The notes: generated by a model from the sequence alone, not told the origin. A stretch of 62,503 nt of DNA, filler included, from Catajapyx aquilonaris (GCA_000934665.2; 2 parts of 2 records of this genome joined end to end with filler, not necessarily neighbours in it), one strand, 5' to 3'. Positions 1 to 31,152 are shown, counted from the first letter of the whole stretch. Made by a program: numbers and translations.

Positions 1-79
1 CATGGGCCTGGTTGCCGCCATCATTTGAGACGAACAGAAGTAGCCAGGGCTACAAATTGCTCCAAGAGCAAGTCACATG

Positions 80-190
80 TGGGGAATTCTCATAGGCCGG
101 GTGGTCATGTTGTTTCCTCTGCATCTGTATCAATCCCTGTCTGCAGCTCTGGTGTTCCAAGGTTGTTGAGAGGTCCTGGACCGTTCTTTT
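80..190 (-). pseudogene. Parvovirus/densovirus-type phospholipase A2 (VP1u) motif remnant, frameshifted
   Basis: Minus-strand translation GPLNNLGTPELQTGIDTDAEE/(frameshift)QHDHPAYEN resembles the parvoviral PLA2 pattern GPGN-L-x-GEP-x-ID-x-DA-x-EHD-x-AY. Confidence 0.45.
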
Positions 191-1099
191 CTGTTTTAAT
201 CCAAAGAAATGCTTCATGGAGCCATCTAACACCTGCATTAATCTCACGAGGGTCTAAAGTATTTCATTTCCATGCAGTCTGCTGAAGTGACTCCATGAGG
301 ATTATTCTCAGGGGAAGGAAATGGAAAATATTAGTAAAAAATTTTTACCCTGGGGTTTTTTAAATATTTCCTCTACAGTCCATTGTAGATTGGGGATGTG
401 AAATCGCTGGTACTGTCCCTATGTCCATATCTGGTTGAAAAAATTCGGCAAGTCCATACCACCATGGCTGCCTTACTGGTGCCACACCTGCTGACCCACT
501 TGCTGACCCACTTGCGGGCCAGCACATACCGCCCAAGTTGGGATCTGAGGTTCTTAATTTTTGTTTGATATTGGCAGGTGAGGTGTGGACATGCACCCGA
601 TGAACAGATAACTCTCATGTTTGTGTTGTATGCATCAATAACTCCTGGCCTAGGTACCCAAATAGCCTGAACCCAAGTAGAGTGGTATAGTCGAGTCCAA
701 AGGTAAAACCGTCTTAAAGTGACAAAAACCTACATCTGAGAAAAACGCATTTGAAAATCTTTTCGATATAGCACTCGTCCCTTTGCTCGGAAGGAAAATA
801 TAATATGAAGAGCGTGCGCGTAAAACCCAATAAATCCGAGTACTCCAATTTTACAGGAAGGGCTGAAAACTGTGCCCGAATGACCATTAGGGTTACAAAT
901 TTCACTTCTGGCATAATATGTAGAACACCTCCGAGAGATGCCTTCTGCAGTCATTACTCACTTCAAAGTTGTCAGGTCAATGAAATATTTGACCTTGAAG
1001 GATGGATATGTGGGTGTTTGTACGCAACACGTAGATTATGGGGTGTCTGATTGGAATACAATCATGGCAAGAGTAGTGCACAGAAAGGAGCTACAGTGC

Positions 1100-1660
1100 A
1101 AAATCAATTTTTTTCTGTCTGGATGAGACAACATCCCTTGGAGTAGCTGTTCCAAGGGAAGGAAATACCCCACACTACCATCATTGCCTAATTGCACTCG
1201 CGATGGTTTGACAAAATGCAAATGTTGTTCATAATATCGCTTTCTCTTTCTGTCGGTTGTTAGTGCTTGCAATTCCACACTTGGAATGCCAGCAGTTTCA
1301 AGAATATCTTGAATGCTTGTGACCACATAAGGAATTACTGTTTTTGCCACTTGGTGGTGCCCCTCCAGGGAAAGACACAAGTTAGTGGTTTGTGCCATGA
1401 CAGAGCTATGCACAGTCTCTTCTTCAGCATCTGTTACAGCAGGTTCACGAGTGTCTTGTTCTATTTCCATTATACTCTCATTTCCCTTGCCCACACATGC
1501 TTTAAAATGCATTTTGTAGTTGGAAAGCTTTCTTACAAATGAGTTACAAACATGACATCTATAAGCTTGTACATTTGATGGATGCTACTGCCGCATATGG
1601 CGACAAAATCTGGACAGTTTGGCACACTGGAAAATGCAATTTGGGACAGGTGTGCTTCCA
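1100..1660 (-). mobile_element. EnSpm/CACTA (CMC)-like transposase N-terminal fragment with two zinc fingers
   Basis: CP/NCIFQCAKLSRFCRHMRQ*H and YRCHVCNSFVRKLSNYKMHFKAC fingers, then LCLSLEGHHQV...TTDRKRKRYYEQHLHFVKPSRVQLG...YFLPLEQLLQGML, typical of the N-terminal region of animal EnSpm-like transposases. Confidence 0.65.
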
Positions 1661-3449
1661 TATGCCACTACTTTGATGCATCACCTTTGACCCAGTAGAT
1701 CCACTTGCACGTTGTTCAGTTCCTCCAGCTCCAAGAATGCTGCTGGATGGCTCTGCTGCTGCACCTGTGAAGATGTTTCGTCTCAAAACAAGAACAAACA
1801 ATTTGCATTTTGCAGGCAGCTAATGACATAGCTGCTAAACAAGAAGGCATGGACAAAGCATCTGAAATTGTGACTGAAACACTTCCTATACTACTTCAAA
1901 GCTTCCGTTGGAGTGATGTGTTAAATAACGGCACAGATCATAATCGTTACATCATGTCTAATTTTTCAATTATCAATATGGATGCCTCTTATGCTCTGGT
2001 GCATTGCACCTAATATGCTGATGTTATACTGAAACCATAAGTGGTCTGAAGCAAGTTACCATATACCTCATGCTTGATCACTTCTCTCTGCATCCGTCTG
2101 AGAACCTTCCTTGCTGAAATGTGCCAGTGATGGCGGATTCAGTTCTGAAAAAATCAAGTTCAAATTATTATCAATAGAACGAAGAATGTGTTTGTCAATG
2201 GGACAATGTTGGTGAGTAACAAATGAAAGCCAAGGACTAAATGGGTGGAAGGAGAGAAATGCTTACACAGAAGAAATTGTGCAAATATCTATGTCCAGGA
2301 AACTGCTGATATCTTTGTCAAACATTTAACTGGGTACAAAGACAGGTGTACGACATCTTACAGGATGCCAACAATGCAAGTGAATCCGGTATGTCTTGTG
2401 GCTCAAACTCCTCAAATGTCTAACAAAATCTCCACTTAATATGCTAACCGATGTGGTCCTTCATTTCACTGCCGGGTGCACAATTTCAGTCTTTGGCGAG
2501 AACCGAGTTCTGAAATCGAAAATTCCGTGGTCAGCGACAATTTCGTTGCAGACTAAATTCGTGACTGACCTCGGATTTATTTATTTTTCAATCGATATAG
2601 GACTACATCATATTTGTTGGGGTGACAAATAGACCTGACCTAGACAGCCTGTCCCTGAATTGAGATGGAATGGACCAGGATATTATTTTTTTAAGGACCA
2701 GCAAAAAAGCTTGAGCTATTTTGAATATTATGTTACGGTCATTTTTTTTGCTGAATCCGATTTTCTACCCAGATGTACTCTGAAGATGAAAACAACTGTC
2801 CCACTGCATATAATGCTTTTATCCAACGGTGGTCAACCCTATATTGTTGAACTTGTCGAGGGTAAAAAGCAACACATGACATGTAATGCCTTTTGCCAAC
2901 AGTCCTGTCGGATGGTAAAGTACTACAATATTTATACCACTTACGAGAAGAAAAACCCTTTTGTGACATTTATATGTGCCAATTAAAAATGCAGGTAATG
3001 ATGGCTATATACTTTCTCAACAGTTACTTACCTCACCTGAATGAAGAGGGATGATGTTCCATTCACCCCACCATCATTCTGTTGTGGTTTGTTGTGAGAA
3101 ATAAATACGAATCGACTCCACGACTGTACAGTTTATGATAGGGAAAATTTATTGACACTCTCTGGACGGTGTGTAAAATATAATGACACCAATGACACTC
3201 ATATATACTGTATAATAGTAGCTGTATATTTCATGGTATGAGAATAATAACTGCCAACATTGCAGCTGTTAGTAAATGACACTGCAACTTCTCAGTCTCC
3301 TACAATTACGTTACTAAGCTGTCAGGTGAATAGGCAGAGGTCAGAGCTCTCATCGCTCTCGGGTAGGTTTTCCCAGAACAACCTCCTGTTGACAGGCATG
3401 CTTGGACAGAGGCTGCTGATGATGATCTTCTTGCTAGGAAGGATGCCTC

Positions 3450-3640: not shown

Positions 3641-3659
3641 ATCGAACATGTGACTTTGT

Positions 3660-4210
3660 ACCTGCAGCAGCTGCTGGTACGGCAGGTACTTCAGCTGCTG
3701 CAGCACCCTCTATTCCCACCGCAGCCTCAGGTTCTAGGTGTGCCCCACCTACAGGATCCATGGCTGGCAAATCTTGATACATGACCACGTTTCCACCTAC
3801 AGGAAAGTCGGGAAATAATGTCCATTCTGCTCCATTAATGCGAAATTTACATTAATATAGTATCGCCTGCTAGTCAAATAATCCCTATTTGGCTTCCATT
3901 GATTCTTCATGTACTCTGCAACTTTCAACTGGGCATACTGCTTCATTTGTTGTTTTATACTTGCTGCCAAAGCTGCATCTTGTACCGCACGCCACTGTCC
4001 GGCCATTTGGGCTTTGAGATCCGCAATCACATCCACATGAGCATTGTAGATCAGGCCAGTCCAGCCTAAGCTAACCTGCCTGAAAAAAGGCTTCTCCAAT
4101 GTTCCAAAAACCTGGGCCCAATTCATGGAGGTTTGCAATAACCTGTCGTGTATGTGGTTCCACGACATATAAAGATTGCAGCGCGCCAATATTTCTCTCC
4201 ATGTCATCAC
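3660..4210 (-). pseudogene. Unassigned coding fragment, possibly an endogenous negative-strand RNA virus nucleoprotein
   Basis: Open 137-aa ORF (3797-4210) with helical character (RQVSLGWTGLIYNAHVDVIADL...GQWRAVQDAALAA...DYLTSRRYYINVNFAL), followed after a frameshift by an Ala/Pro/Glu-rich tail. No TE motif recognised. Confidence 0.3.
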
Positions 4211-5204
4211 ATTTATTGCAATAATGCAATTTTTTTATGTACAGATAGAGGAGTCTTTCCGCAACTGTGGTTGAATGGGACGGATTGACGTAAGAGGCCT
4301 TCCATTTTGATCACTTCTGCAAATGGAAGTTCGAACATTTCAAACTCATGATCCGCTTGAAATATGTCTTTTCCCAAAAGTGACGGGTTAACACTGTGGA
4401 TTGCTCTTTAGAAGTTTCCATCTTGACTGGCGAAAATTTTCCAAATATGCAAAAATCCACAGCTTATGTCGATTTTTAGTAGACCATTGATGATAAACCG
4501 GCTGCCGGACAGTTTGCCTTGCCTCGGGTGTCCACAAAGGGGCTTAGGTTATGTAAATAAACCGAGGCACGACAGCCCTCCTCAATAATAATCAACACAT
4601 TTGCAAATCCGGCAGCTGTATTGTTGCGAAACCAGCTCCTCCCGGAATTTGCCAACATCTTCATGATCGATATCACTGCAACGGCAGACTGTATTCTTGG
4701 TCCGATCAAGACCATGGTGGCAGCTCATTTCCCAAGTGACGTTACTACGCTGCACATCGTATTCGTACTGCAAAAGGTATGATTGTGAGACTTGTAGACG
4801 TTCTCCCTGGTGTATTATTGGTCGCGACTCTGAGTGGCAGAGTCCATGCGATATACGTGACCCATGCCTGTAAGGAGGCAGTACTTCTCGTAAGGTCATC
4901 CGTTGACAACTTGGAAACAAGACACGGGTTCGTCTTGCGTTTATCGAGGCCTTCGGGGAATTTAGAAATCAACCACAATTATCCCTAGAAAACCAAGAAG
5001 TTGTGGTGATGCGCAGGAAGTGTCGGAAGAATACAGGTCACATCATTTGACATCAGTTTAAGTAGGATAATGCAAATTTATTCACAGTGGTTTGGTTAAG
5101 TGGCTCTCACTGCACACTAAGGGTTCCGAGGGAGACGGCGTAAGGTTAGAAGAAGAGGGTGGCTCAGCGCATCTTCGGTTCTCCAAATCGACAGTGGGTC
5201 AGCT

Positions 5205-6784
5205 GCCCCTTGAATGGAATAATCTGTTCATCTCTTGATTCTTGCAACTCGGGCTCTGTACAGCTGGCAAATGCCTCATTGAACTTATAAAGTAATGTTC
5301 TGACCTTGTACAATCTGTCGTAGCCTTCCTCTCCCTTTTTCTTAATCAAGGTATTGTCACAAAAATGTAGAACCGACAAAATTTCCTCAAATCTGTTACA
5401 CGTCATATGTGCATCATCAATAAATCCCTGACGTGTAGCAGGAGACCACTACATCCGACGAAAGGGCAGCGCCACTACACTCATGTAAATACATATTCCC
5501 AAGAAACCTCGAATTTCCCTACTTGTTACAGGCTTCATTCTCGTCCTGTTCAGCTGAATGCGAAATCGGTTACATTCAAAGACTATAAAATCAATAATTA
5601 CATCTTGATGAAACTGGGTGTGAAACATGTCAAGTGGTGTTTCAGCTACTAGTGCTGGTCCAAGAAGTACAATATCTTTTTCTGGAGTAATGTGGATTGG
5701 TAGGTCATGTCTCGCCCACTGCCGAGGAGGAGGCTTGCTTTTCTTCTTCCCTCTTGGTTTCTTCATTGAAGTTTTTGCACGGGTTTGACGGTTACCTGCT
5801 TTGTTTGCATCACGTTGTTTACGCACTGTAGCCTTTCTAGGTTGTGCTCTTGCTCTTTTTGGTGCTGACGGAGTACCGGTACTGCAAAGGAAATTATACA
5901 CATGCCATGTAATGAGCATAATACTTATGAAATATTGTAATAAGGCAATAAGCTTACCTTGTAGAAGGTGCAGGCAATTCTTTTACATCTAATTCTGATT
6001 CCTCATGGCCAGAACTTGGCTCATATGTTGGATCGTCAACATCAAGATCCTCTTCAGACGGTGCACCTTCATCACCATCATCAGTGTCCTCGTCATGTGA
6101 TGGGCTGTCATTGCCATTATCTCTGTGATTCTCTTCGAAATTTTGCTCATCTTCATCATCGCTTGCCCGTTCGTCTTCGCTACCCGAAGGCGGGCCATAG
6201 TCCCCACGTAAGAGATCCGCTATGTCTTCTATCTCTTGGCAGTGCATTCCTAAGAAGTGTGTACAGGTTCATTGACAAACAACAATGGCATAATAGGTGG
6301 TAATGGTTACTTTGTTATGTATCTTATAACATATCCTCTTTGACACAGTGTCCAATATAATGGCAGCCCCCAGGTGGCATGAATGTCCCGTACTGCATCA
6401 TGTCCAAAAATATTGGACGCTTGTTATTCTTATCTATGGCTGTTTGGCAACTGCACATGTTTTTATGAATCAGGCGAGAAAGTAACCGGGATAGCCTCAT
6501 AGAAAGTGCAATAACAAAGAGAACCCTGTGTGATTTGAGGAAATGCCATAACTTCACAATTTATTATAGAGAGTCGTATACTTACACGGATTTCTTGGGG
6601 TCGGCCATGTTGCCTGGGGCCTCCAGGGTTACCAATCTCAGTGAGAGGTATCTTAGCGCGAAAGTTCGAAAGCCATTCCGTCCAATATTTTGGACATCAT
6701 GCAAAAAAAGTTCCAGTTGTGCTCATTTCGCGGTAATAAATTTGCAAACTATGTCCGATATATTGGACTATATGCAACAAAGGG
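5205..6784 (-). mobile_element. piggyBac transposon, 5' end plus N-terminal half of transposase (3'-truncated)
   Basis: Acidic N-terminus; GT-AG intron 5882-5957 (phase-compatible); TPLDMFHTQF...EIRGFLGICIYM; MTCNRFEEILSVLHFCDN...DRLYKVRTLL...DEQIIPFKG (first catalytic D) with one in-frame stop. Terminus CCCTTTGTTGCAT at 6784 and GTCC-n-GGAC palindromic subterminal repeats. Confidence 0.9.
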
Positions 6785-7174
6785 TTTGAATATAGGGTCG
6801 TATTTACCTAACAAAATCTTCTGGCATACGCTGGCCGCAAGTCCATATCCCGAAATCAAGGAAAACAGGCATGATACTCTAGGTTTTGAATATACTGCGC
6901 GAGGTATCTTGCATAACCTCGGTTGCCCTTCCTCTCACTCGTTCAAATCCCCTTCTTCCAGCATCATGATTATATGACTGCTTATCCGCCGACACGGCTA
7001 TATATTATGGATGTTCAATCTTAAATGCTACAGAAATGTTCGTTACTGGTACTGGCCACTGTATCGCTCTGTATAAGGTATATCGCTCACTGTCTTAACA
7101 TTTCCTAACTGCATGACTCAAAATGGAACCAGCCATGTCACATGAACTGAGCACTACACACACTAGATGCGCTC

Positions 7175-7605
7175 ACCGTTTTCATCATGAAATTGCCAGC
7201 AATAATTCTTGGATTGGTTCTGGTGGACATATGTTTCGTCAAGCCAGACAATCAGTGGTCGTTCCTCCTCAGGTACAGCCATAACTTCCTTCATCTGCCT
7301 GAGATACACGGCTCCGTGTGCTGCTACATCTTTGCGCTCCATTAGGACATGTCTGTTATCACGTGTTCTGCGGAACTGGAATCCCAAATTCTTCAGAATT
7401 CTGCAAGTGATAATTGCAAGTATTTTTAGTCCATTGTTGAGCCTAGGTTAAAGGATGATACAGACATACCTGTTCATGCTACTGTTGGAGCCTGTCCAGC
7501 CACGCTGCTCCTTTAATTTTTTCGACAATTTGGCTACCGTCACAGTGTCTTTGTTGAGGCACATGTCGATGAAAACTCTCCGCAATAGGCTCCCGTCAAA
7601 GGTTA
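7175..7605 (-). mobile_element. IS630/Tc1/mariner-superfamily transposase fragment (HTH to first catalytic D)
   Basis: FDGSLLRR...VAKLSKKLKEQRGWTGSNSSMNR, intron 7401-7469, then ILKNLGFQFRRTRDNRHVLMERKDV...YLRQM...IVWLDETYVHQN...YCW. Confidence 0.8.
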
Positions 7606-7723
7606 CTTGGCCCTCTAGTTCATAGCCACATTTTTTTTTACATTTGGCCCTTACACCTTTTCTCGCTTCCTTTTTAACTTCATCAAATGACATCCAAACA
7701 ATATCACGTTTTCTACCAGCCAT
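7603..7723 (-). mobile_element. hAT transposase N-terminus (partial BED zinc finger)
   Basis: MAGRKRDIVWMSFDEV...GVRAKCKKKCGYELEGQV fits the BED pattern W-x2-F...AKCK-x-C...G; truncated before the His ligands. Confidence 0.65.
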
Positions 7724-7889
7724 ATTAAATTGGTGAACTTAGCCAAACAGGTCTACACTCTGCCATTAAATGTCACAAGCAGCTCTTTGCTTCAGTACAC
7801 CAGGAAAGAAGAGTGCAATAATATGGTGCAACCACTGCAACGTATGATTGGATATTGCTAAAGGGGATTTCCCATGCAGTGGGAATTCC

Positions 7890-8185
7890 GCCAGAAACTC
7901 ACGGAAGATCTTCATTGAGTGCTCCCACGTCTCGCCTGCTTCCTCCTTCACACCATGCACCAGCAGGTTGTTCCGCCTCGATTGATTCTCCGACCTTTCC
8001 ATCTGCCTCTCCAATGTCGCAATGCGTTGTCTTAGTTCTTCATTTGACTGCTCCAATATAGTGGTCTGTTCCTCTGTTTTCTCCGTCCATCGACCCTCCA
8101 GATCTCCGATTGCTTTACGCACCGTTAGGTCCAGCTCCGACCTGAGCTTGTTGATGCGGTCTAAAGTCGCCAACGGAAAATGGGG
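7890..8185 (-). mobile_element. Non-LTR retrotransposon (CR1/L2-type) ORF1 fragment: coiled coil and start of RRM
   Basis: LEQSNEELRQRIATLERQMERSENQSRRNNLLVHGVKEEAGETWE. Confidence 0.8.
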
Positions 8186-8384
8186 AGACTCCCGTAGATT
8201 ATCAGTCGGCGGGAGCAGAAAAAAGGCGAACCTTCCTGCTCGGGCTCACTGGAGCGAGTCCAATGAGAACTGAATTACAGCAGGCACTTGAGAAAATTTC
8301 TTAGGAGCTTCATAATATATTATTACTGGTGTGTGCTCTCAAGTATTCACATGCATTCCAGATGTGAGCTTAACTGACCTTGAT

Positions 8385-9250: not shown

Positions 9251-9369
9251 CTTAACTGCTGACCAAAAATGTGGTCATATACGACTACTTCGTCAGTGAC
9301 CACCCACAAGTGGTCATTTCTGACCAACTCCATTTTTATTTTCTGGCTTCTCTTTCTGGGGTTGTTTCA

Positions 9370-9575
9370 ACTCCATGCAATTTGTGGCGCAGACCTGACC
9401 GGTGGCTGAATGTCTTGTCACACACGTGACAAATGTGTGCAACACTCTTTTGTTGCACTGGTGGATCACTGCCCACAATTCTCCCTTGCACTTTCACTTT
9501 ATGTCGGTGTAGACTTGTCCGGTGGCTGAATGTCTTGTCACACACATGACAGATGTGTGCATGTGATGACATCTT
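9370..9575 (-). pseudogene. Two tandem C2H2 zinc-finger repeats (fragment)
   Basis: HICHVCDKTFSHRTSLHRHK and HICHVCDKTFSHRSGLRHK; near-identical ~45-bp DNA duplication at ~9398-9441 and ~9518-9561. Confidence 0.7.
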
Positions 9576-9662
9576 CTTCGGGTTCTTCCTGATGGTCAGG
9601 GGAAGAGAGTATACTGTGTACTGTGCTTGGTCTCCAGGACAGACATCTTCCACCTGACTGGA

Positions 9663-10590
9663 CACGGTTACAGTCGCGGTAGTAACCGCGAGTGCCGCTG
9701 GCGTCGATGCTACATGCTACAAGTTTAGTAGCATATGGAGACGCAGGTATTACAGGAAATCCGCCATTTTGAAAAACCAATCGGCCATCTTTGAAATTCG
9801 CCGGACCTTTTTGGATCGGCCACAGCGGCCACTTCGACACTCGCAATTTCGTTCGCGTTCAGCTTTGCAATTACAGGTTACTAAGTGCAAAATGTTTTCA
9901 GGTGCAGCTTCCTGCAGGGTAGGGACTGGTCTTAGGCCAACCTTCCATCCCCAGTCCAATGGCGGCATTTCCACACCTCGCCACTGCTGCACCTGGTGAA
10001 ACACCCGAAGAGAATGTTGTTTCGCTGCAGCCGTCGTAGGAGGGAGTGTGGCCAAGTTGAAACTGGCATGGACAGGCGACCGTTTTAATGTACGCCCGAT
10101 GCCTCGCGGTGTCCTTGGCTTCTCTCCATACATGGCCAGGAGGAACTCTTCACCTGCCACTGTCACCTCATGTGCTGATGAAATTGGGTTGTTGAACACT
10201 TCCAGCCTGTCACGAAGAGTGGGATTCCTCTTAAGTTTTTTAAAATGCCCCCGTTTTTTTTCTCCTATATGGAGCAGATGTGATGTCGCACCCAGTGACT
10301 GCATGAAGAAAGAGCATAATTATGCCTTGCCATGTCTCCCAAAGATCTTTACAGTCGGCTGCTGCTATACACTTCGTCCGCCCGTTTCTTCGTTCCCGGC
10401 ATGAGCATCCTGATGTCTTGATCCTCCTTCGTTAGGGCAATCAAGATGATAAGATCTGTGTATTCGTTGGTGGGCGAGCAGACAACTCATATTTTAGGTA
10501 ACCAGCAAGCTCGTCGTCACTGCGAAGGGTGCAGATGATGCGGTGAAACAGCTGGTTGGGATTGACTGTTTCCCCCCGTACCATGATATA
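9663..10590 (-). mobile_element. Chapaev/CMC-like large DNA-transposon protein, C-terminal part (PIN/XPG-like motifs plus CXC tail), internally deleted, with probable terminus
   Basis: VNPNQLFHRI...YLKYELSARPP, deletion, EYTDLIILIAL...LFLHAVTGCDITSA, then LATLPPTTAAAKQHSLRVFHQVQQW...PLDWGW...APENILHLVTCNCK...CEC. CACGG at 9663 is a candidate terminus. The superfamily label is less certain than the TE origin. Confidence 0.7.
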
Positions 10591-11510: not shown

Positions 11511-11526
11511 CATCTAATCGCCTCCA

Positions 11527-11790
11527 AGGGGGAGCTATATGAGCAAGGTGACTCCCACCAATCAGCCCGATCACGCCAGGGAACCCAGCACGAGAGAACT
11601 CTTGCTTCATATTCCTGACTTCCTGTGGGGTGCGGGGGTATCTAATCCACCACTGCGGGGCTAGGTGATGGTCGATGGCTGTGGTGACTGAGGTTACCAC
11701 GTTGCTCACTGTCGACTGTGAAACCCCATGGTACAGGTTGGCCGCAACCTCTTCTTGATAGGACCCTGCGGCATAAAACCGCATAGCATT
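11527..11790 (-). mobile_element. PIF/Harbinger (HARBI1-like) transposase fragment
   Basis: LRFYAAGSYQ...GVSQSTVSNVV...IRYP...GFPGVIGLIGGSH (catalytic D degenerate). Confidence 0.85.
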
Positions 11791-14080: not shown

Positions 14081-14099
14081 AGCATCAGTCTTTGCAAAG

Positions 14100-18975: not shown

Positions 18976-18989
18976 GACGTCAACTTGTT

Positions 18990-20419: not shown

Positions 20420-20823
20420 TTTGGCACGGAGAGGGAAGGGAATGGGAAGGGGCGAAGTCGGACAGGAAGGAGATAGGAAGAGGAACACACCCGAGGAGGA
20501 GGAGGAATAGGAAAGAAAGGTTACCCACAATTTGCTCAGGACAAATAAATACAATTCATTCAGTAGTACTACTGAGATAGTAGTAGTGCATTTGGCTAAG
20601 GTCTTACCGCATTCCATGGATATGAAATATAACTACAGAAAGGAGGTAATAAGAGCAGGGCAAGGTAACGGTAAATTTGAAAATGCTAGGATATTGGCTG
20701 TGGAAAAAGGCATATTAACCACACTTGAAAGTATACACATGTGCAATGTAAATATCTTTATTTGATACGTATCAGCTCAGCTCAGATCATTTGTGTAACA
20801 CAGTTGCCCATTTTCGCTTTACA

Positions 20824-22090
20824 TTAGAGCTCCTTGACACGTGGCACAACTCGAAGAGCCTCATTCATTCTAAACCTGAGGAAATAGTGCACCCTCATGT
20901 TTAGATACGCTTTCAGAATACGTTCAGGAAGGTCTTCACAATAGTTGCCTTTCCCAAGGACACCACCATTTCGACACTTAAGTTTGGAAACATGATCCAT
21001 GATTTTCCTCTGTGCTGTTGCAACTAACCCCAACACATGTACATTGCCATTTAAAAACGGGATCAATATTGTATTACACAGGCGGATAAACCGGAACATC
21101 GCTGTAGAAGGCAAGTGAAATGAACCAAAGTCATTGTTATCAGACTGGTTCTGTAGGGACTGGTACGTTTTAGACCTGGTGAATTCTTGATAGAATTTCT
21201 CTGCTTTTCTCACATCATTAAGTAATGCAGCCCTACATTCCTTACAATCATGACATTTCAGCACCCTTTTGCATACCCAACCAGCAATGTAATAGTCAGC
21301 ATTCTGGCTGCATATTTCATTGACATCATCTTAATGTATTGGAAGCTCTTCCTCTTCCAGGGATTCACCATTATCATCTTGCACCAAGTCTGAGGTCAAA
21401 TTACTTTGTGGTACTATCGTACTTGTCAGTGCATGAGCCTTCAAGAGAAACTCTCCCAGGTCATCCTCACAATTTTTGCCCAACCCAACACATGAAAACA
21501 AAGTTGATGTGGAAATTCTTTCCAAGCTGCACCGAAATTCTGATAATCTGGGATTGAACCTGAACCCCCCCGACCCCGAATCTTGGCAAATAAATTCTCT
21601 AAGCAGTCTTGGTTAATATTTCTTGTGGACAAGTACGGCACATTGTGATTTGTTTTTAAATCCTGCTTTCACAATACATTCATCTACATGTGGTGCTACC
21701 TGCCTACCAGTAAGTCCATCTTGTACGGCAAAGTAGCATATTGGCTGCTTCCATTTCCCACACAAAGAACGAAGCATGAAGACTAAAGCATGGTTGGCCA
21801 CTTCTGGAGCCCTATCACCACCTCCAAAATCAACAAATCCCTCTACCTTGTCCGCACTATTGTTGTAACTGAGACCAACCTTGAGTGACACCTCATCAAG
21901 GCAGAGTGTCACCAATTTGTTGATTGCAGGCATATGAGTGACTTTCTTCTTCAGTGCTTGGAATACTGTATCTTGCAGCCCAGCATCTAACCGATATGGT
22001 TTCAGCCAACTCCGCAGGGTTCTTTCCGTGGGCAGCCGGAATAATTTCCTACACATTCTGTAGGCAGCAGGTCCAGCATAATGTAATATA
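20824..22090 (-). mobile_element. P-element superfamily transposase, internally deleted
   Basis: GPAAYRMCRKLFRLPTERTL; LCLDEVSLK; GFVDFG; ANHALVFMLRSLCGKWKQPICYF; deletion near 21650; YLSTRNINQDCLENLFAKIRGRGG; YIAGWV; C-x2-C. Confidence 0.92.
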
Positions 22091-22549
22091 TGATCATACC
22101 CGTATCGTCGCTGCTTTTGAATAAGAGTCTTTGCCCCTCTAATTTCGCCCTTAAGGGGAGGGAACACTGAAACTTTGATTTTGGCTCCTACTTGAGGGAA
22201 TTGCCTAATTTTTGGTGATCTCATAGCAGATGTGTGTGGTATGTTGTACACCATTTTTCATGTTAATGTCTCCCCATACCTGAGATGTGGCACTCTCATT
22301 GCGACTTTTTTACGTTCATGAAAAACGCTCCTTGCGCATTCAATTTTGTTGAAGGTAGCTGAGAATGTGCCATCACTCTGTCAAGACTCTGCACAAACAA
22401 GATTACATGCCACTTTTTTTCAATTTCTTCCTGCATTAATATATTGTAAAAAAATAAGAAGGTATTGTCAATTTCAACAATTACAAATTTTAACAAATGT
22501 TCAGCATTGATGTTGGCAAATTAATTTAAACTTTAAGAGTGGCACTCAC

Positions 22550-23200
22550 CTCTGCAAAAGGTCTTTGTCAGCCATACGCTCATATACAGGTAGAATGTGT
22601 TTCAGCACTGTGCTGTTAATCTTCAGAGACGTGTCGGTGTGGGATTTGCTGTTTTCGTTTTTGGCAGCAGCTCTCTGAAAAAAAACACCATGAGTTCTCT
22701 CCATCAGGGCAAAAGCTATGGTTGTTGGAGCTGTCTGTCGAAGCGCAGTGATGGGGGTGTGGCTAAGACAGCTCGCATCATTTCATCTGGGTCTCCCCTG
22801 TGGTTGATAATGGCAAGGCGGTAGTAGGTACTGAGTTTTCTTATGACCTGTTCGGTGAGCTGGCCTTCACCTCTTCCTCCGAGAGTAATCTTCTTCACCT
22901 TGCAGTCCTTCACAAGTTTTTGAAGACAAGTAAATAACCGTTTGGAAACATGGTTGATGCACTCCTCTTTTGTAAGTTGCACCCCTGGTCCATATGGCTA
23001 CAACTCCTGCAGGCGCCTGCAGGTGGCTGAAGGTGGCTGAAGGTTTTTGAGTCACCGTCACTAAGCATGACAGTGTAACGCATGTTACACACACACACAC
23101 ACTCTCTCTGACCGTCTCCAAAGAATGGCAGCAGCAGCCATTTCCATGGCAGGAGAACTTCCTTCATAGTTCCTGTTGCATTCCGTTGAATCCATGTGCT
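22550..23200 (-). mobile_element. Kolobok (Mutator-like domain) transposase fragment
   Basis: NYEGSSPAMEMAAAAILWRRS; RYTVMLSDGDSKTF; KEECINHVSKRL; LGGRGEGQLT; YYRLAI; HSFCPDGENSWC; ends at a GT donor near 22549. Confidence 0.8.
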
Positions 23201-24739
23201 CCTTCTCCCACTGTCGAAATTCATTAGTGTCAGCACCCGGAGACTTCTCTGCCAACATCTTGGCGGTAGATATACCAATACTGTCATCAAAACCTTACTA
23301 GTTAACATTTCATAACGGTTCATTTTCACTGCCAATATATATTTTGTAACAAACACTAGCTCCGATTCCCAATACTTTCTATAACAGCCATCAGCAGACC
23401 CCCCTTTGCTCTCCCGAATTTAGATAGTTTTTCTCCAGGGGCCTGATACCACGTGTAACCTAACGAGCCATGTAATTCGACTCAGAAGGGCACACGTCGT
23501 GACCAAAGGAAGGTACACAACAAAGGGTTCGTTCCAATCTGTTTTAATGGTCTGCATATGATATGACACAGTATGTGGTGGTGAGTCTAGGAAGGAGGAA
23601 GGAGAGGAATGACGGAGCGACCAGTGGCCCACCCGCGAGGGCGACCAAAGGCCTCGAGGTGTCATAGGACTTCCCTTTTATAGAGGCAGAGGACAACGGT
23701 TTAGGGAAGGCGCAATGCATGATGGTAAATCAGGAAGGCACAATGCATGACGGTAAATCGAACATGAGCGTCATGAAGGGGAGCTACAACAGTCTCAGAA
23801 GGTCGGAATGTTGCATGATGGATCCAGTAGGGAAGGGCCAAGGTTGGATTGGAACAATGATATGATAACGACAGAATGGTATGTACATGTGAGGAGCCGT
23901 GGTGCAGAGGGGCATATGTCCTTGACAAGGAGATTTGGGAAAAACACAAGAAACCGTTGCACTATGATCCCTGCAGCCTAGCTGTTTCATATCCTAGGCT
24001 TACGTAGAGCAACATGATTGCATTAATTACCTGCAGCAACAAGTTACAAATATCAATAGTGACAGAGATATACAACATTGAAAATTGAGATATGCCCCTT
24101 TGCTCCCAAGATGAGTATCTTTGCCCCTTTGCTTGCCAGGCACTGTCACCTTATGCCCCTTTGAATGCATAAAACATCATGAAAATAGTTGTTTTTCCCT
24201 CACTCTTGCTACTGAACCTCAACAATTGGCCTGGAGTATCTTTTAAGATTGGGAAATGAAGAATGGGATGTGATTAAAAATTTATTGGAAGAATAGTAAT
24301 GGTCTACATCTACACAGCCATACAAAGTATAATATCACTTCACGTAATGTGAGCAAAAGTCAACAAATCAAATTTTCACTCCCACGTCTTCTTCATTACA
24401 CATGCAGTCTTCGTTTTCCTCCATACTTTCCCCATCTTTGTCATCAAGGATGCCAACGTACCATGACAAATTTTGCTGGCTCCTCCACTCGTCACCAAAA
24501 CTCTTTGCCAATAGCATGGCCACATCTTTTTTTTTTTTTTAGCTTCAGTAGCCTGCAACTTGCCTGCCCTTCTGCTTGCAAGGGGGGATTTCCCCCAGAG
24601 AATGGAATGGGTACATATGCCCATATGCTCACAATTTACTATTTCCCGGGTAGCCTCCCATGTATTGCACTACTCCACGTGTCCAGGTTATTTTTTTTGT
24701 AAAACATGGACTTATGCCCCTCTTCACCACTGCTCCTCA

Positions 24740-26513
24740 TTTTCTCTTGCAAATAGTTGAATGGCCATGTCTATAACTTTGGAATATCTGTAAGAAATAA
24801 GTTATACAGCCTACATTTGCAGCATTATTTTTTAGCCTTAATTAAAGAGCAAAAAGAAAAGTAATTACCTCGGATTTTCATCAGGACCACCGTCAACACT
24901 GAAAATCACAACTGGCTTCACGTTACCTACAGGATCTCTCATATGAGCACTAAACTCAGGCATCTGACACATGTCAGAAAAATCTCGAGCATGAGATGCT
25001 GCAGTTGATGAGGTATGCTTTCCTGAACGTATGGCAATATACGTAGGTCCAGAGTAAGTCACTGCTGCCCTGTCAAAGTTATTTTCTGCAATGTTCCACA
25101 GAGCATACACCGATGGGATTAACTTATGCCGCTCTGCCAGAACCCAGTTGTGGTCTGGCAGAGTAACACGGTACTCCAAGTGCATTAAGAGTGGTGCCTG
25201 CTTAACTGCGGCAGGCAATCCAATGGGAACCCTGCACTTATTATCCTGGGACAGGAAGACCACTGAGGATGGTCCCAGGAACGAAGCTAGGTCTTCCAGA
25301 CTGTTAATGGTGCTGATACAAACTTTTGCATCAGGATGAGTCTTGTGCTCATTATTACTTGCCCTGTTTAATTTCACTGGGACAGTTGTCACGTGCCGCC
25401 TCCCTTCCAGAGATGCACTGCAACGTGGCAGCAACCTTAAGTACGTTCCACTACGACTAATCGTGTACCCCTTGGTGTGAAGTTCTTTTGTCAAATCATC
25501 CAAGGTTCGACATGAATTTAGTGCCTCCGAGCGTCTTCGGCTCTCAGCTGATGCACCATGGGTGACAATGTCCACTATTGTCTTGAGCAGATCAGGTTGA
25601 TCCTCTTCCAGTGAGGGCCTTCCCCGCTTCTCACGAATCTAATAAAAAATTGTAATGCATTGTACATCACTTTATAGATAATTTTAAATATAATCACAAA
25701 AATTATCCCATTTGATAACAGTATTGGCCAGCATGGCTCACTGAGTATATACAGTACCGACCTTCTGCTTTACGTGGAGCACGCAACAGAATGTGTGGTA
25801 TAAATTCGCCAATTCCGTTCGGACCTACTAACCTTCAATATTTGTCCAATTTCAGGATGATCTTGCATGACTTCTTCAAGAGCCTTGCGCTTTGTCTCTC
25901 GGTAGCCTTTTGCTTTTTCAGTTTGATATACTCGCCGCTGCAATTTTGCTTTCAAGTCTTTTAACCGCTTCTCCTTCATTGCAAGTTCCTGCCTCTCTTG
26001 CCTTTCAAAGCCCAGTCCAATTTCCTTTCGCCTGTAGAGATCAGCAACCTCAGCAGAGATTGTGGAAATGTCAGTTTTCAACTTCTCTTGTCCTGGTGTT
26101 GTCCAGGTTCCGGTAGTGGCAATTTGTTGAACAGCAGCGCCAGTTGCAACGACTGATGTTGCAGTAAAGATACTGATTTGATAATAATTTATTGGAGTGA
26201 CATCGGGGGAACTGCTGCTTCAGATCTGCTACATGTACCTGGGTCCCCTGGTAGTGAAGGTGCAGGACAATCAGTTCTTGGTTTTCCTGCTGGCTTCTCT
26301 GACCCAGGAATGTGGCTGAAGTAATTCTGCATGGTACTCCTCTTTTTTGTACACAGTATGTCGAGCTCCCGTATGGCCTCCTTTACCTTCTTTTCTAACT
26401 GGACATTGTTTCAGTGCAGCCCACTTGCTTCTACACAATAATTCTTGCACCTCCTGACCTGTCTTGGTAGGATATGCCTTCTTGCAGGCGAAGAACAGGT
26501 CGTTGAAGGACAT
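24740..26513 (-). mobile_element. Zator transposase, multi-exon, 3'-truncated
   Basis: GRPSLEEDQPDLLKTIVDI; RRRSE; TLDDL; YLRLLP; FLSQDNKCRVPIG; VTLPDHNW; YSGPTYIAIRSGKH; VDGGPDENPR/YSKVI. Phase-compatible introns 25639-25832 and 24788-24868. Confidence 0.9.
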
Positions 26514-26779
26514 CCCGGGAAATTTCTATGACAGAGGCATACGAAATAATGTGTATAAACTAATGACAATGACCTCAATTTGGCTAGAAACTATTTTTTT
26601 AAAAAAGTAGGCAGTTGAAGCTTTCTGGTGTACATTAATAAAAAATCTGAGTGTTCATTGTTGTGTTTCTGATTTAAAAATCGGAAGTTACCGGTACTTT
26701 CCGGATGAGCTCGTAGTACCTTACTTAATAGACATCTCTGGAAGGGAACTGCCCCGAACGAAGTGCGAATGGTTCCTGT

Positions 26780-27050
26780 AGCCCCAAACCCCTCCTTCGG
26801 CTCCGTGAACCATCTCTTGATCATCTACCTCGCGCTGGAGTTGTTCAAGTGTGTAAAATCGACCGTTGATCTTCGCACGCTCACGCCTCATGACTGCATT
26901 TTTCCCCTCCTCCTTTGCCTGGCTCATGAAGGGAATCAGCTGCCTCCTTATCTCTCTCTCGTCTTCCGCGAGTAATCCTCCGCTAAGCCATGTTGGTATT
27001 TTTCAGCCTGTACGAGTTTGTCATAAGTGCTTCTTTATCCCCATCGCTGG
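26780..27050 (-). mobile_element. CR1/L2-type LINE ORF1 C-terminal fragment
   Basis: EIRRQLIPFMSQAKEEGKNAVMRRERAKINGRFYTLEQL. Confidence 0.65.
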
Positions 27051-27224
27051 ACTTGGCTGCCTTTGAAAGATATGAAGCGCGGATTTGCAACGGATAATGT
27101 TCATTGGCAAGCACCACAATCTTTGCCAGATAATAATTACACTCATTTTCATTTCAATAAATTAAGAAGCATTAATATGGATGATCACCTTCACATGATA
27201 AATTTAGGTGACTTTATTTTCCAT

Positions 27225-27895
27225 CAGATACGGATACATGCACCTTCTGGTTCTGCACACAGGCAGTTCTCCTCATCCATTTGTATATGACCAGCACGCA
27301 ATGTCTTGTAAAAATCGAATGCATGATCCTCTTTCCACTCAGGACCAACATGCTTACAGAGAAGCGTCTCGATGTTGTCCAGTTTCTTGGGATTCACAGG
27401 AATGCCGATAGGAATTTCAGTTTGACGAATTGATCTTTTTCCCTCTCTTGCGCACTGATATAGTGCCTGACCCGTTAAGGAGTAGTATTAATACGACTCT
27501 CCTGACACCTTAACGCTATCGTTGCATTTTGTGAGAACAAATCGTTTGCAGTCTGTGATCTTAAAATGCAGTGCTTGCGGTGATTTCATGACGTTACCTA
27601 CTGCTTCCTTCCATGTCATAGGGATCCAGCTCTCACCTAGTTCCAAAACTGGCAAATTGGCTGATAACCTCTAGATAGCCACCTGCGAAAAGGATTGTGT
27701 CTTTTTTTCCTTAAATCCTTTTCGATGTTTCCAAATACTCTTATCTGCCGGCAAGTATGAGTGTCCAGTGATTGGAAACACCTATTCGACACTCTTCACA
27801 TGGGTGGCTGACTGACCTAGGAGCCACTTGCACAACATTCCGATCATAGTAGATTTTTTGTTTTGCCCCCCACACCCATCAGCTACCAACCTTTG
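27225..27895 (-). mobile_element. Sola1-type transposase C-terminal fragment (different family from 12110-14080)
   Basis: RLVADGCGG/NKKSTMIGMLCKWL...FPITGHSYLPAD/RVFGNIEK...KKLDNIETLLCKHVGPEW...FYK. Confidence 0.8.
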
Positions 27896-28919: not shown

Positions 28920-30400
28920 TCCACAGCAGGATACTTCAGCCACTCTGACAATACATTCACCAACACTATGTACACTGTGGACACGTCGCATGTGTGGAAT
29001 GGACTTTGTTCTCCCAGTGAGTGTTCAGTTCATCCGAATGGCCCTCAATATCTTCCTCAGGGTACAAAGATCACCTTAATGTTGGGGCAAGCCTGAGATG
29101 CCACGGTGGCAAAATCTTGTGCGGTGTCCACTAATGTTCCTGCCCTGGTTCGTCTCCACACAGCGCCTTTGACGGCAGCCCCAATCCCATCAACGACACC
29201 TTTGCCATGCGTAGATGCAAAAAAAAGTGCCAGCTAAGGGTGACTCCAGAGCGCAAAGTGAACACGTGCAGAAGAGACATCAGATACTTCTGTCAGACCA
29301 CCGCAGGTAGTGGCTGAACTAAAGTTAAATGAGATTATAGCAGGATGGAAATAATACCATTCGGGGAAAGATTGATTATAACATTTTTATTTAATGCTTC
29401 GTAATATGTTTTACTGGACTCACAATATACTCTTTTATTTCACTTTAATTCCATACTATGATTTCTGTTCCCAACAGTGGGATCGTATAGATTTGAATAC
29501 ATTTCTCACTGGGCACCATACTGACATCGTTACATTTGACAACTCCGTAATCACACATCAATAATACTAATATCTAATACCTTCACGCTTCACATTGGCT
29601 TCTCTTAATGATACATGTTACATGCTTACACCTACACGTGTATAAAGAAAAATCTTTGTTGATGGAAATTTGTTATAACAGACATGGCTTACCTGGTATC
29701 AAGATGATTGTGATCCAACAGAGGTACACTACGTACTGCTTCTCGTACTGAATGAATGAATGAATGCTGAATGCTCTTTTCTCGTTATCCCCTAGGGCTT
29801 TTATACTTTCCACCCGTATTCCACGGTATTCCAACTTGCTCGCAATGCCTCCCTCAGTGGGCTCTGGCATATTTACGTATCCCGTCTCTTTGAGATAATA
29901 AAAGGGACAGCTAATGTGTTCCATCGCGTGGATATGCAATTCTGGAGTCATTTGGTGGATTAATCAATGTGGTCCATCATATGACTCGTACTTTCTTTGC
30001 ATATCGTTAATGACCTCGGCACAATCCATTATTACTAATAATATCCGTACGCAATGTCCTTTTAAGACTGTGTGTGTCGTTGTGTCATAATAGCATGCAT
30101 GACACTTCTGCTTAAACTGGGAGGCAGCTCCGTCAGAAAAAATGAGGACTTCACGAAAGTCAGGGCAGCTGTCGTTCAGGTCACTGAGGATGACGTCCAC
30201 AAATTTGTATACGCTGATTTTTCCATGGACCAGACAATCCGATATCAGAGAGTAGCTCCTACACATGCTCGGAGAAACCCATGCGTGGCCAGTAAATACG
30301 GTGCACTGTGGGCAAGCCCAGTGGGCTGCCTGAACTTCGCACTGAGTCTTGAGAGTGTAATTCTCTGCGAAATCCACCTGTAGGACAACTCTTGTTCCAT
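28920..30400 (-). mobile_element. Sola2-type transposase core interrupted by a solo LTR
   Basis: QVDFAENY...EVQAAHW...ISDCLVH...FSDGAASQFKQK, insertion, YLMSLL...WHFF/ASTHGKGVVDGIGAAVK. Confidence 0.85.
29291..30104 (-). mobile_element. Solo LTR (814 bp)
   Basis: TGTCA...TGACA termini; 4-bp TSD CTTC at 29287-29290 and 30105-30108; minus-strand AATAAA near 29390; removal restores QFKQKYLMSLL. Confidence 0.85.
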
Positions 30401-30504
30401 CTGCATTATTAGGCTGCGGCAGGCATCTCTCCTCCTCTTCCTCCTCATCCGTCTCCAGCTCATCCTCCTCGATCCTGACCACCCCGGCACGTAGCGCCGT
30501 TCCT

Positions 30505-31060
30505 CCTTGTATCTGGCAGCGGGAGACGGCTGAATGCATCTGTATTTCCATGGTCCTTACCTGGTCGATATACCAGATCGTAGTCATAACCCCCCAGGTG
30601 CAGGTTCCACCTCAGCATCCGTGGAGACAGCATCATATGCGTTGGCTTTGTCGGGTTCATCAACCCCAAAAGCGGTTTGTGGTCCGTGATGATCGTCACC
30701 CTACGGCCTGCCACATACTGGTGGAACTTCTTTAATTACCTCTGCCGCCTCCTAATCAATCTGTGCATTCTTTCAGTTGCCGATAAGGTGCGGGATGCAA
30801 ATGCCACGGGTGCCTCTGACCCGTCTGTCAACTGGTGGTCCAAAACTGCTCCCGCCCCGTATGGCGACGCATCACATGACAACAGCAGCGGCTTCTCTGG
30901 GTCATAGTGTGCAAGGACGACTGGAGCAGGTCCTTGGCTGCCTTGTAGCTGCTGTGCTGGTCTGGCCCCATGTGAATGTCGACTTGTCATCTAATAGCCG
31001 ATGTAGGGGTTCCAGGATGGTCTCCCTCTTGTTCAGGAAACAACCGTAGTAGTTGTGTCG
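30505..31060 (-). mobile_element. Ty3/Gypsy pol fragment (RT connection and RNase H)
   Basis: NYYG...LEPLHRLL...FTWG; LAHYDPEKPLLLSCDASPYGAGAVL; PVAFASRTLS; TDHKPL; RW; YRPGKDHGNTDAFSRLP. Confidence 0.92.
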
Positions 31061-31152
31061 ACCAGAAAGGTGCTGGTCCGTCAGGTGGTGGGAATAATGC
31101 ACGTAACGTCCAGATGCAACTAATAGTTTATTTACACCATATGGAAAGGCAA

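What the first reader, a model, noticed from the sequence alone, without database searches (positions are those of the whole stretch)
1..31152. 31-kb array of co-oriented transposon and virus fragments: candidate uni-strand piRNA cluster
Seen: about 28 independently derived fragments abut with little spacer and lie on the minus strand; only one element (R1, 15041-15654) is on the plus strand. If orientations were independent and random, 28:1 has a probability near 1e-7. Established: uni-strand piRNA clusters such as Drosophila flamenco accumulate TE pieces antisense to one long precursor. Inference: this block is transcribed on the plus strand as an antisense silencing library. The promoter is not visible and would lie upstream of position 1.
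Basis: partly seen in the sequence, partly recalled or inferred. Interest (0 to 1): 0.92.

Follow-up and report, generated by a model that had tools for sequence, protein, structure and literature searches.

The report
One-strand transposon graveyard, piRNA candidate
This 31-kb scaffold of an arthropod-like genome is a pile of broken, unrelated transposon genes that nearly all point the same way, the layout of a locus that makes transposon-silencing small RNAs, but no RNA data could be reached to show that it does.

Summary
The co-orientation is real. In 1-31152 all 9 of 150 ORFs with Pfam hits (6 loci) are on the minus strand. Three more minus fragments follow: MADF, a retropepsin-like ORF and a 257-aa DDE transposase piece. 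ORFs of 150 aa or more split 15 minus to 1 plus, against 0.55 and 1.1 in shuffles. The fragments are mutually unrelated and none is intact.

Not confirmed: the count of 28, any virus fragment, and the plus-strand 'R1'. The right edge is not biological. Positions 31153-31252 are a 100-bp joining spacer, so the block is a whole scaffold without flanks, and 31253-62503 is probably unlinked DNA.

Best reading (about 0.5): part of a one-strand piRNA source locus transcribed on the plus strand. Main rival (about 0.3): a long plus-strand intron or non-coding transcript that tolerates only antisense insertions. No RNA run was listed, so these cannot be separated.

The kind is known. The composition, mostly cut-and-paste transposons, differs from flamenco. 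The scan's unchecked notes describe at least eight similar blocks on other pieces of this genome.

The parts
1..31152 (.). Whole first piece (a scaffold with small gaps at 12210-12220 and 19040). It is an array of co-oriented, unrelated, truncated transposon coding fragments. Their sense strand is minus, so the inferred precursor strand is plus.
376..1584 (-). Open frames, including a 182-aa ORF (1039-1584) with a zinc-finger-like start. Transposon-like by eye only; family unknown.
   Evidence: Pfam best E 0.049. Read-through Pfam found nothing.
3800..4968 (-). Three open frames (145, 79 and 128 aa) of unknown origin.
Evidence: Atlas uninformative. No IMG/VR relative.
5167..5982 (-). piggyBac-type transposase fragment (profile positions 1-142 of 349).
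   Evidence: Pfam DDE_Tnp_1_7, E 4.1e-10 and 6.6e-6; 7.4e-13 when read through stops as X.
7166..8245 (-). Three open frames (94, 96 and 159 aa). By eye they hold a DDE-type motif and a LINE ORF1-like coiled coil. No tool supports this.
   Evidence: No Pfam hit at E<=1e-3. PDB search found none.
9339..9716 (-). Two C2H2 zinc fingers (the internal 56-nt direct repeat at 9386/9506). Transposon or host origin is undecided.
   Evidence: Pfam zf-C2H2, E 7.4e-8; repeat family D1.
10444..11504 (-). LTR-retrotransposon fragment: a gag-like ORF, a zinc-knuckle ORF and the N-terminal part of reverse transcriptase (RVT_1 positions 2-130 of 205). G+C rich.
   Evidence: Pfam RVT_1, E 8.6e-7; zf-CCHC only E 0.15; GC 0.528.
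11371..11796 (-). 142-aa ORF, Harbinger/PIF-like by eye.
   Evidence: Only weak Pfam HTH_Tnp_4, E 0.21.
12112..13909 (-). Group of open frames (143, 148, 113, 162 and 87 aa) that probably belong to one DNA-transposon-like element.
   Evidence: Pfam DUF7869, E 0.0019, below the curated cut-off.
15031..15294 (+). It is an 88-aa ORF with a zinc-knuckle-like Cys/His motif as at the end of non-LTR reverse transcriptases (by eye, recalled).
   Evidence: No Pfam hit at E<=1. No homologue among longer proteins.
16064..16681 (-). 206-aa acidic, coiled-coil ORF of unknown family.
   Evidence: Pfam only E>=0.009, unrelated families. No IMG/VR relative.
17008..17874 (-). 289-aa ORF resembling a retroviral-type aspartyl protease (LTR retrotransposon).
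   Evidence: Atlas nearest clusters are RVP_2/RVP, score 0.95, recognition 2350 (a lead, not an alignment). No Pfam hit and no near-length homologue.
18635..18946 (-). 104-aa ORF, pogo/Tigger DDE-like by eye.
   Evidence: No Pfam hit. PDB search found none.
19322..20632 (-). MADF DNA-binding domain in two pieces. Profile positions 49-84 lie at 19367-19492 and positions 2-37 at 20243-20347, about 750 bp apart.
   Evidence: Pfam MADF_DNA_bdg, E 2.7e-4 and E 0.033.
20827..22257 (-). P-element/THAP9-type transposase fragment (HTH, RNase H N- and C-terminal parts). The downstream 168-aa ORF is probably its C-terminal region (by eye).
   Evidence: Pfam TNP-like_RNaseH_N E 5.5e-29, Tnp_P_element E 5.4e-5, TNP-like_RNaseH_C E 3.4e-5.
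22719..23419 (-). Mutator-like transposase fragment (profile positions 264-340 of 357) plus the adjoining 169-aa ORF.
   Evidence: Pfam Mutator, E 3.6e-10.
24739..26160 (-). Internal fragment (aa ~124-491 of ~810) of an unnamed, widespread DDE transposase family.
   Evidence: 446 relatives at E<=1e-3, best 5.8e-98, 53-65% identity. tblastn map. The model of relative P0010 has an RNase H-like core matching Metnase/Mos1 at Z 9.0-9.4.
26274..27487 (-). Several 77-93-aa open frames, transposon-like by eye only.
   Evidence: No Pfam hit.
29676..30611 (-). 96-aa and 215-aa ORFs of unknown family, DNA-transposon-like by eye.
   Evidence: No Pfam hit. No IMG/VR relative.
30463..30990 (-). LTR-retrotransposon RNase H fragment, separate from the one at 10.4-11.5 kb.
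   Evidence: Pfam RT_RNaseH_2 E 6.1e-15, RT_RNaseH E 1.3e-8 and 2.5e-11.
31153..31252 (.). 100-bp joining spacer: 44 N, a 12-base all-frame stop linker, 44 N. It marks the end of the piece, not a biological boundary.

Best explanation
The 31-kb scaffold is part of a one-strand (unidirectional) piRNA source locus.

Inferred mechanism:
- A long RNA is made from the plus strand.
- It starts either at a promoter or by read-through from a gene lying beyond position 1.
- It runs antisense through the transposon remnants and is cut into piRNAs that can pair with transposon mRNAs.
- Insertions in the other orientation are lost. They would yield useless sense piRNAs or would stop the precursor.
- That loss leaves the near-perfect co-orientation.

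What is shown here is the co-oriented, fragmentary, many-family anatomy. Transcription, its direction, processing into piRNAs and selection on orientation are all inferred.
For: 1. All 9 tool-supported fragments from different families lie on minus and none on plus.

2. Long ORFs of 150 aa or more split 15:1, while shuffles give about 0.5-1 per strand.

3. The bias covers cut-and-paste transposons (piggyBac, P-element type, Mutator type, the unnamed DDE family) as well as LTR elements. It is seen in all three gap-free segments.

4. The fragments are unrelated to each other, truncated and without terminal repeats. This is the 'graveyard' make-up described for piRNA clusters (PMC9175491, passage read).

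5. In Drosophila, strand-specific transposon content alone predicts flam-like clusters with median precision 0.76 (PMC11400887, section 16 read).

6. Unidirectional clusters are reported as the rule in arthropods (PMC9175491; mosquito core clusters, 10.1101/2022.08.22.504762, passages read).

7. Selection for antisense insertions once a promoter is present is the published model (PMC10643416, discussion passage).
Against: - There is no RNA evidence of any kind.
- No promoter and no upstream gene are visible, because the scaffold has no flanks.
- AATAAA is not depleted on the proposed transcribed strand. It is enriched: 19 observed against 9.8 +/- 3.0 in shuffles.
- Only 9-10 of about 25 blocks have tool-supported identity.
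- Composition differs from flamenco. Few LTR pieces are present, no env was found, and DNA transposons dominate.
- No non-retroviral virus piece was found, unlike mosquito core clusters.
- Antisense bias of transposons also arises in ordinary introns (PMC3088655, passages read).
Confidence: 0.5

Rival explanations
1. The block lies in an ordinary long plus-strand transcription unit, either a giant intron or a long non-coding RNA, and makes no piRNAs. Insertions whose own promoter, splice and polyadenylation signals point along the host transcript are removed by selection, so only antisense copies persist.
For: - LTR elements and LINEs in mammalian introns are mostly antisense to the gene, and this is ascribed to selection (PMC3088655, passages read).
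- My detection method sees only coding remnants of autonomous elements. These are the ones that carry such signals.
- The scan's unchecked notes report giant introns in this genome (e1-7597246). Two earlier follow-ups raised the same rival for similar blocks (e1-7595484, e1-7596252).
- The scaffold has no flanks, so flanking exons cannot be excluded.
Against: - No plus-strand exon or domain was found in the block. None of the 60 plus ORFs of 70 aa or more had a Pfam hit.
- The bias (9:0 by tools, 15:1 by long ORFs) is stronger than I recall for introns. That figure is my own knowledge; the paper read gives no ratio in its text and left DNA transposons out of its analysis.
- AATAAA on plus is enriched, not depleted. 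This argues equally against strong selection for an uninterrupted host transcript.
Confidence: 0.3
2. The co-orientation has a structural or neutral cause unrelated to transcription. Possibilities are orientation-specific nesting or insertion preference at this site, or chance in a genome scanned at many places.
For: - Only 9-10 fragments have firm identity, so the firm statistic is modest (p about 0.004; 5e-4 for long ORFs).
- Many windows were scanned: 685 windows with notes in this genome. That leaves room for a look-elsewhere effect.
Against: - The fragments belong to at least six different superfamilies with different insertion mechanisms. A shared insertion preference is therefore unlikely.
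- The scan's notes list at least eight further pieces of the same genome with the same pattern (unchecked by me). That is far more than chance at p around 1e-3 would give.
Confidence: 0.1
3. The pattern is an assembly artefact: contigs wrongly joined or wrongly oriented.
For: - The piece is a scaffold with two small gaps, at 12210-12220 and 19040.
- It ends in transposon sequence on both sides.
Against: - The strand bias is present inside each of the three gap-free segments, so it does not depend on how segments were oriented.
- The fragments carry stops and frameshifts and abut within contiguous sequence.
Confidence: 0.03

Closest known systems
Drosophila flamenco and flam-like unistrand piRNA clusters (van Lopik et al. 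2023, PMC10643416, passages read; FlaHMM, PMC11400887, abstract and section 16 read)
   Same: - Tens of kb of transposon fragments with strong strand bias.
- Layout consistent with one long precursor antisense to the transposons.
- Strand-specific transposon content is itself used there to predict such clusters.
   Different: - There the bias is driven by Gypsy-family (retrovirus-like) elements. Here only 3 of the 9 supported fragments are LTR-type, no env was found, and cut-and-paste transposons dominate.
- Promoter, splicing, somatic expression and piRNAs are shown there and are untested here.
- Synteny could not be examined.
Mosquito unidirectional 'core' piRNA clusters fed by read-through from an upstream gene (10.1101/2022.08.22.504762, passages read; A. 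aegypti flamenco-like EVE cluster, PMC7161354, title and start of abstract seen in a search listing only)
   Same: - An arthropod with a repeat-rich genome.
- Unidirectional clusters acting as traps for inserted fragments in antisense orientation.
- Those clusters offer a way to be transcribed without a promoter of their own.
   Different: - Those clusters are enriched in non-retroviral virus fragments. None was found here.
- The upstream gene within 5-10 kb that defines the read-through type cannot be looked for, because the scaffold starts inside the array.
Antisense-biased transposons in long introns (Zhang et al. 2011, PMC3088655, passages read)
   Same: Co-orientation of transposons opposite to a host transcript, explained by selection against sense insertions.
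   Different: - It was reported for LTR elements and LINEs. DNA transposons were excluded from that analysis.
- No host exon was found in this block.
- The bias here is close to complete.

Membership tests
flamenco / flam-like unistrand piRNA cluster (Drosophila) | Strong strand bias of transposon content over tens of kb | tested here: met
   9 supported fragments on minus, 0 on plus. ORFs of 150 aa or more split 15:1, against about 0.5-1 per strand in shuffles.
flamenco / flam-like unistrand piRNA cluster (Drosophila) | Enrichment of Gypsy-family, env-bearing LTR elements as the source of the bias (PMC10643416; PMC11400887) | tested here: not met
   Only three LTR-type pieces were found: RVT_1, RT RNase H and a retropepsin-like ORF. 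No env family appeared. Most supported pieces are DNA transposons.
flamenco / flam-like unistrand piRNA cluster (Drosophila) | piRNAs (5'-U bias, phased) from one strand only | not testable with these tools
flamenco / flam-like unistrand piRNA cluster (Drosophila) | Discrete promoter at the 5' end; spliced precursor | not testable with these tools
   The array runs to position 1 and the piece has no flanks.
Arthropod unidirectional piRNA cluster in the broad sense (mosquito core clusters, Daphnia) | Array of truncated, nested fragments of many transposon families ('graveyard') | tested here: met
   At least six superfamilies are present. The fragments are mutually unrelated and have no terminal repeat pairs. 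The mapped copy is an internal 45% of the protein.
Arthropod unidirectional piRNA cluster in the broad sense (mosquito core clusters, Daphnia) | Small RNAs of piRNA size arising from the locus | not testable with these tools
   One search listed no run. No genome is held.
Arthropod unidirectional piRNA cluster in the broad sense (mosquito core clusters, Daphnia) | [quoted passage not shown] | not testable with these tools
   The upstream flank is absent from the piece.
Arthropod unidirectional piRNA cluster in the broad sense (mosquito core clusters, Daphnia) | Non-retroviral virus fragments in antisense orientation | tested here: inconclusive
   No viral Pfam family was found among the 291 ORFs scanned in piece 1. 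There were no IMG/VR relatives for the 3 unknown ORFs tried. About 15 ORF blocks remain unidentified.
Long intron of a plus-strand gene with antisense transposons | Flanking or internal exons on the plus strand | tested here: inconclusive
   None of the 60 plus ORFs of 70 aa or more had a Pfam hit, and plus ORFs of 150 aa or more are at the shuffle level. The flanks are missing, however.

The most novel reading that the evidence does not exclude
This arthropod-like genome may carry many separate, almost perfectly one-way arrays built mainly from cut-and-paste transposons. This piece would be one of them, alongside at least eight others listed in the scan's unchecked notes. That would be a genome-wide set of unidirectional piRNA sources aimed chiefly at DNA transposons rather than at retrovirus-like elements. 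The orientation purity would be higher than in flamenco, which points to a strong filter against sense insertions.
Probability: 0.2. Interest if true: 0.6.

Novelty: new member of a known kind. Interest (0 to 1): 0.38.

Why it matters
If the block does make piRNAs, it adds a unidirectional cluster from outside the well-studied flies and mosquitoes. Its content is dominated by DNA transposons, which bears on how general the 'antisense archive' design is and on what it is aimed at in different lineages.

Its practical value is as one of a series. With the other similar pieces of this genome, it gives a ready list of loci to check against a single small-RNA data set.

On its own it is an untested candidate of a known kind.

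Tried and rejected
RNA DATA.
- The look-up of sequencing runs on window:19041-29040 (kind rna): no RNA holder listed, none was listed.
- No whole genome is held for this window.

HOMOLOGY SEARCHES THAT GAVE NOTHING.
- 17008-17874(-), near-length proteins.
- 15031-15294(+), longer proteins.
- PDB sequence search for 24868-25638(-), 59120-59686(+), 7769-8245(-), 7166-7447(-) and 18635-18946(-).
- IMG/VR scans for 3800-4234(-), 16064-16681(-) and 29967-30611(-).
- Atlas for 3800-4234(-): recognition 1867, below the useful level.
- Earlier-findings look-ups by sequence.

PFAM.
- A first six-frame read-through scan (stops as X) was too large to print and was not run.
- A smaller one over about 1-6.3 kb added nothing beyond piggyBac. 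I therefore did not extend it.
- I also did not scan the 282 ORFs of 45-69 aa beyond 19520.
- Pfam at E<=1 on 29 long ORFs gave only weak hints: DUF7869 0.0019, MADF 0.033, zf-CCHC 0.15, HTH_Tnp_4 0.21.

OTHER SCANS.
- Rfam, tRNA and tandem-repeat scans found nothing relevant in the block.
- Foldseek on the transposase model gave no match at E<=0.001. Only the VIA-align second look gave Z 9.0-9.4.

IDEAS REJECTED.
- A host gene on plus downstream of the block. The MCT-like exon at about 59.5 kb lies beyond the joining spacer, so linkage is not established.
- One composite mobile element. Too many unrelated superfamilies are present, and there are no terminal repeats.

LITERATURE.
- Lewis et al. 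(10.1101/185694, passages) does not analyse clusters.
- The spider-mite paper (PMC6004056, passages) did not bear on cluster orientation.
- I found no paper on one-way DNA-transposon-rich clusters in non-insect arthropods in searches. These were keyword searches of an open-access library only.

Full report
WHAT THE WINDOW IS

The window is not one continuous stretch. Positions 31153-31252 read 44 N, a 12-base linker made of stop codons in all frames, then 44 N. I read this as a spacer joining two separate pieces of a fragmented assembly. The scan's own index also speaks of 'pieces'.

The finding's block, 1-31152, is therefore one whole scaffold. It has small internal gaps at 12210-12220 and 19040. 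Its right 'edge' is a scaffold end. Both flanks are missing. The second half, 31253-62503, cannot be assumed to be adjacent. No whole genome is held.

Yes in its core. I translated every stop-to-stop ORF of 70 aa or more and scanned them against Pfam.
- In 1-31204, 9 of 150 ORFs (90 minus, 60 plus) had hits at E<=1e-3, and all 9 are on the minus strand.
- They form six loci: piggyBac transposase (5167-5982), C2H2 fingers (9339-9716), reverse transcriptase (10497-11222), P-element/THAP9-type transposase (21444-22257), Mutator-like transposase (22719-22997) and RT-associated RNase H (30463-30990).
- None of the 97 ORFs of the second piece had a hit.
- Among 141 shorter ORFs (45-69 aa) in 1-19520, the only hit was a MADF domain, again on minus.

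Three further checks added minus-strand fragments.
- The 289-aa ORF at 17008-17874 has retroviral aspartyl protease clusters as its nearest Atlas neighbours. The score is 0.95, and this is a lead, not an alignment.
- The 257-aa ORF at 24868-25638 has 446 relatives at E<=1e-3. The best is 5.8e-98, at 53-65% identity. They are unnamed proteins of about 800 aa from beetles, moths, flies, a spider and a snail.
- tblastn with eight of these relatives shows that the window holds only residues ~124-491, at 26160-24739.
- A model of relative P0010 (pLDDT 78) has a core at residues 167-427 that aligns with the Metnase and Mos1 mariner catalytic domains (Z 9.0-9.4, rmsd 3.5-4.0 over 170-193 residues), with retroviral integrases (Z 8.7) and with Sleeping Beauty (Z 8.5).
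- Foldseek alone gave nothing at E<=0.001, and Z near 9 is only a little above the tool's stated background.
- Invariant Asp and Glu residues lie in that core, so I take the family to be a DDE transposase.

The tool-supported tally is thus nine fragments on minus and none on plus.

A database-free check agrees.
- ORFs of 150 aa or more number 15 on minus and 1 on plus. The two strands carry equal numbers of stop triplets, 1372 and 1334.
- In 200 dinucleotide-preserving shuffles the expectation is 0.55 on minus (maximum 3) and 1.1 on plus. The plus strand is at chance level and the minus strand is far above it.
- Minus ORFs of 100 aa or more cover 14.4 kb in 25 merged blocks, against 5.9 kb on plus.
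- The bias is present in each of the three gap-free segments (10:3, 7:2 and 7:3 for ORFs of 120 aa or more). It therefore does not depend on scaffolding.

The fragments are independent.
- Self-BLASTN finds only three short pairs within the block.
- No pair of terminal repeats of 25 nt or more brackets any element.

WHAT I COULD NOT CONFIRM

- The number 28. About 15 of the roughly 25 ORF blocks have no family that any tool would name. My readings of them as Tc1-like, pogo-like, Harbinger-like or LINE ORF1-like rest on motifs I recall, not on a result.
- Any virus-derived piece. No viral Pfam family turned up, and three unknown ORFs had no relatives in IMG/VR.
- The single plus-strand 'R1'. ORF 15031-15294(+) has a Cys/His motif that looks like the end of a non-LTR reverse transcriptase. 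It has no Pfam hit and no homologue.
- The quoted probability near 1e-7. The supported figures are about 0.004 (9:0, my arithmetic) and 5e-4 (15:1).

WHAT IT IS

The scaffold is a graveyard of truncated coding remnants from at least six transposon superfamilies. Most are cut-and-paste elements, with three LTR-type pieces. They are packed with little spacer and all have their sense strand on minus.

HOW IT MOST LIKELY WORKS

The block would be part of a unidirectional piRNA source locus transcribed on the plus strand, so that the RNA is antisense to the transposons.

Three published points support this.
- The published model is that once a cluster has a promoter, selection keeps antisense insertions, and sense insertions may bring terminators (PMC10643416, discussion passage).
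- In Drosophila, strand-specific transposon content alone predicts such clusters with median precision 0.76 (PMC11400887, section 16).
- Unidirectional clusters are described as the rule in arthropods (PMC9175491).

Mosquito core clusters are often transcribed by read-through from an upstream gene (10.1101/2022.08.22.504762). This block therefore need not have a promoter of its own.

None of this is shown here.

One result does not fit a strongly protected plus-strand precursor. AATAAA occurs 19 times on plus against 9.8 +/- 3.0 in shuffles, and 20 times against 14.4 +/- 3.5 on minus. I give this little weight, since known clusters also contain such hexamers (my own knowledge).

RIVALS

- Long plus-strand intron or non-coding transcript without piRNAs (about 0.3). 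LTR elements and LINEs in introns are mostly antisense to the gene (PMC3088655). My method sees only autonomous elements that carry their own signals. This genome is reported to have giant introns (unchecked note). Against it, no plus-strand exon was found, and the bias is nearly complete and includes DNA transposons.
- A structural or chance cause (about 0.1). This is unlikely given the variety of insertion mechanisms and the recurrence of the pattern.
- Assembly artefact (about 0.03). The within-segment bias argues against it.

COMPARISON WITH WHAT IS KNOWN

The block works like, or at least is laid out like, flamenco and the mosquito core clusters. As to membership:
- It meets the strand-bias criterion.
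- It fails the Gypsy/env-enrichment criterion of flam-like clusters.
- It shows no virus fragments of the mosquito kind.
- Every expression-based criterion is untestable here.

I file it as a candidate new member of the broad, known class of arthropod unidirectional piRNA clusters, not as a flam-like cluster.

EARLIER WORK OF THIS SCAN

The index lists at least eight other pieces of the same genome with the same pattern and the same untested verdict. I did not check those. They make chance unlikely. They also mean that this piece is not a new discovery for the scan.

SCORE

Interest is 0.38. The anatomy is clear and statistically sound, but the kind is known, the function is untested and the case has been seen before in this genome. 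The boldest reading still open is a genome-wide set of one-way clusters aimed mainly at DNA transposons. I put it at about 0.2.

Noticed in passing
window 31153-31252: A 100-bp spacer (44 N, a 12-base all-frame stop linker, 44 N) shows that the window is two assembly pieces joined end to end. Features on either side should not be treated as neighbours.
   Followed up: yes
window 59120-59686 (+), second piece: A conserved first coding exon of a monocarboxylate-transporter-like (SLC16) gene. Its last ~55 residues match 586 proteins at E<=1e-3. A profile built from them hits only MCT10 and MCT8 in the PDB, best E 4e-4. The frame ends at a CAG|GTGCGT donor-like site near 59672.
   Followed up: partly
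window 58929-59109, second piece: A 35-nt inverted repeat (86% complementary, 111 nt apart) lies just upstream of the transporter exon. It may be a small foldback or MITE-like insertion, or a promoter-proximal palindrome.
   Followed up: no
window 33302-33534, 36626-37049, 51288-51521, 52509-52621, 54421-54805, second piece: Palindromic or foldback repeats, with related copies in both orientations, probably MITE-like elements. The second piece has no recognisable transposon coding remnant.
   Followed up: no
window 24739-26160 (-) and proteins P0001-P0120: A widespread family of ~800-aa proteins with no Pfam domain. It is 53-65% identical between this genome and beetles, moths, flies, a spider and a snail. 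Its predicted core is RNase H-like and transposase-like. The patchy spread at high identity looks like a horizontally moving DNA transposon family that lacks a curated model.
   Followed up: partly
window 19367-19492 and 20243-20347 (-): The two halves of one MADF domain lie about 750 bp apart on the same strand. This could be an intron of the source gene or a later insertion.
   Followed up: no
window 48577-48899 and 39173-39263, second piece: A 38-bp tandem repeat (about 7 copies, also read as periods of 76 and 114) gives spurious long ORFs in three frames. There is also a perfect (TTA)30 microsatellite.
   Followed up: no
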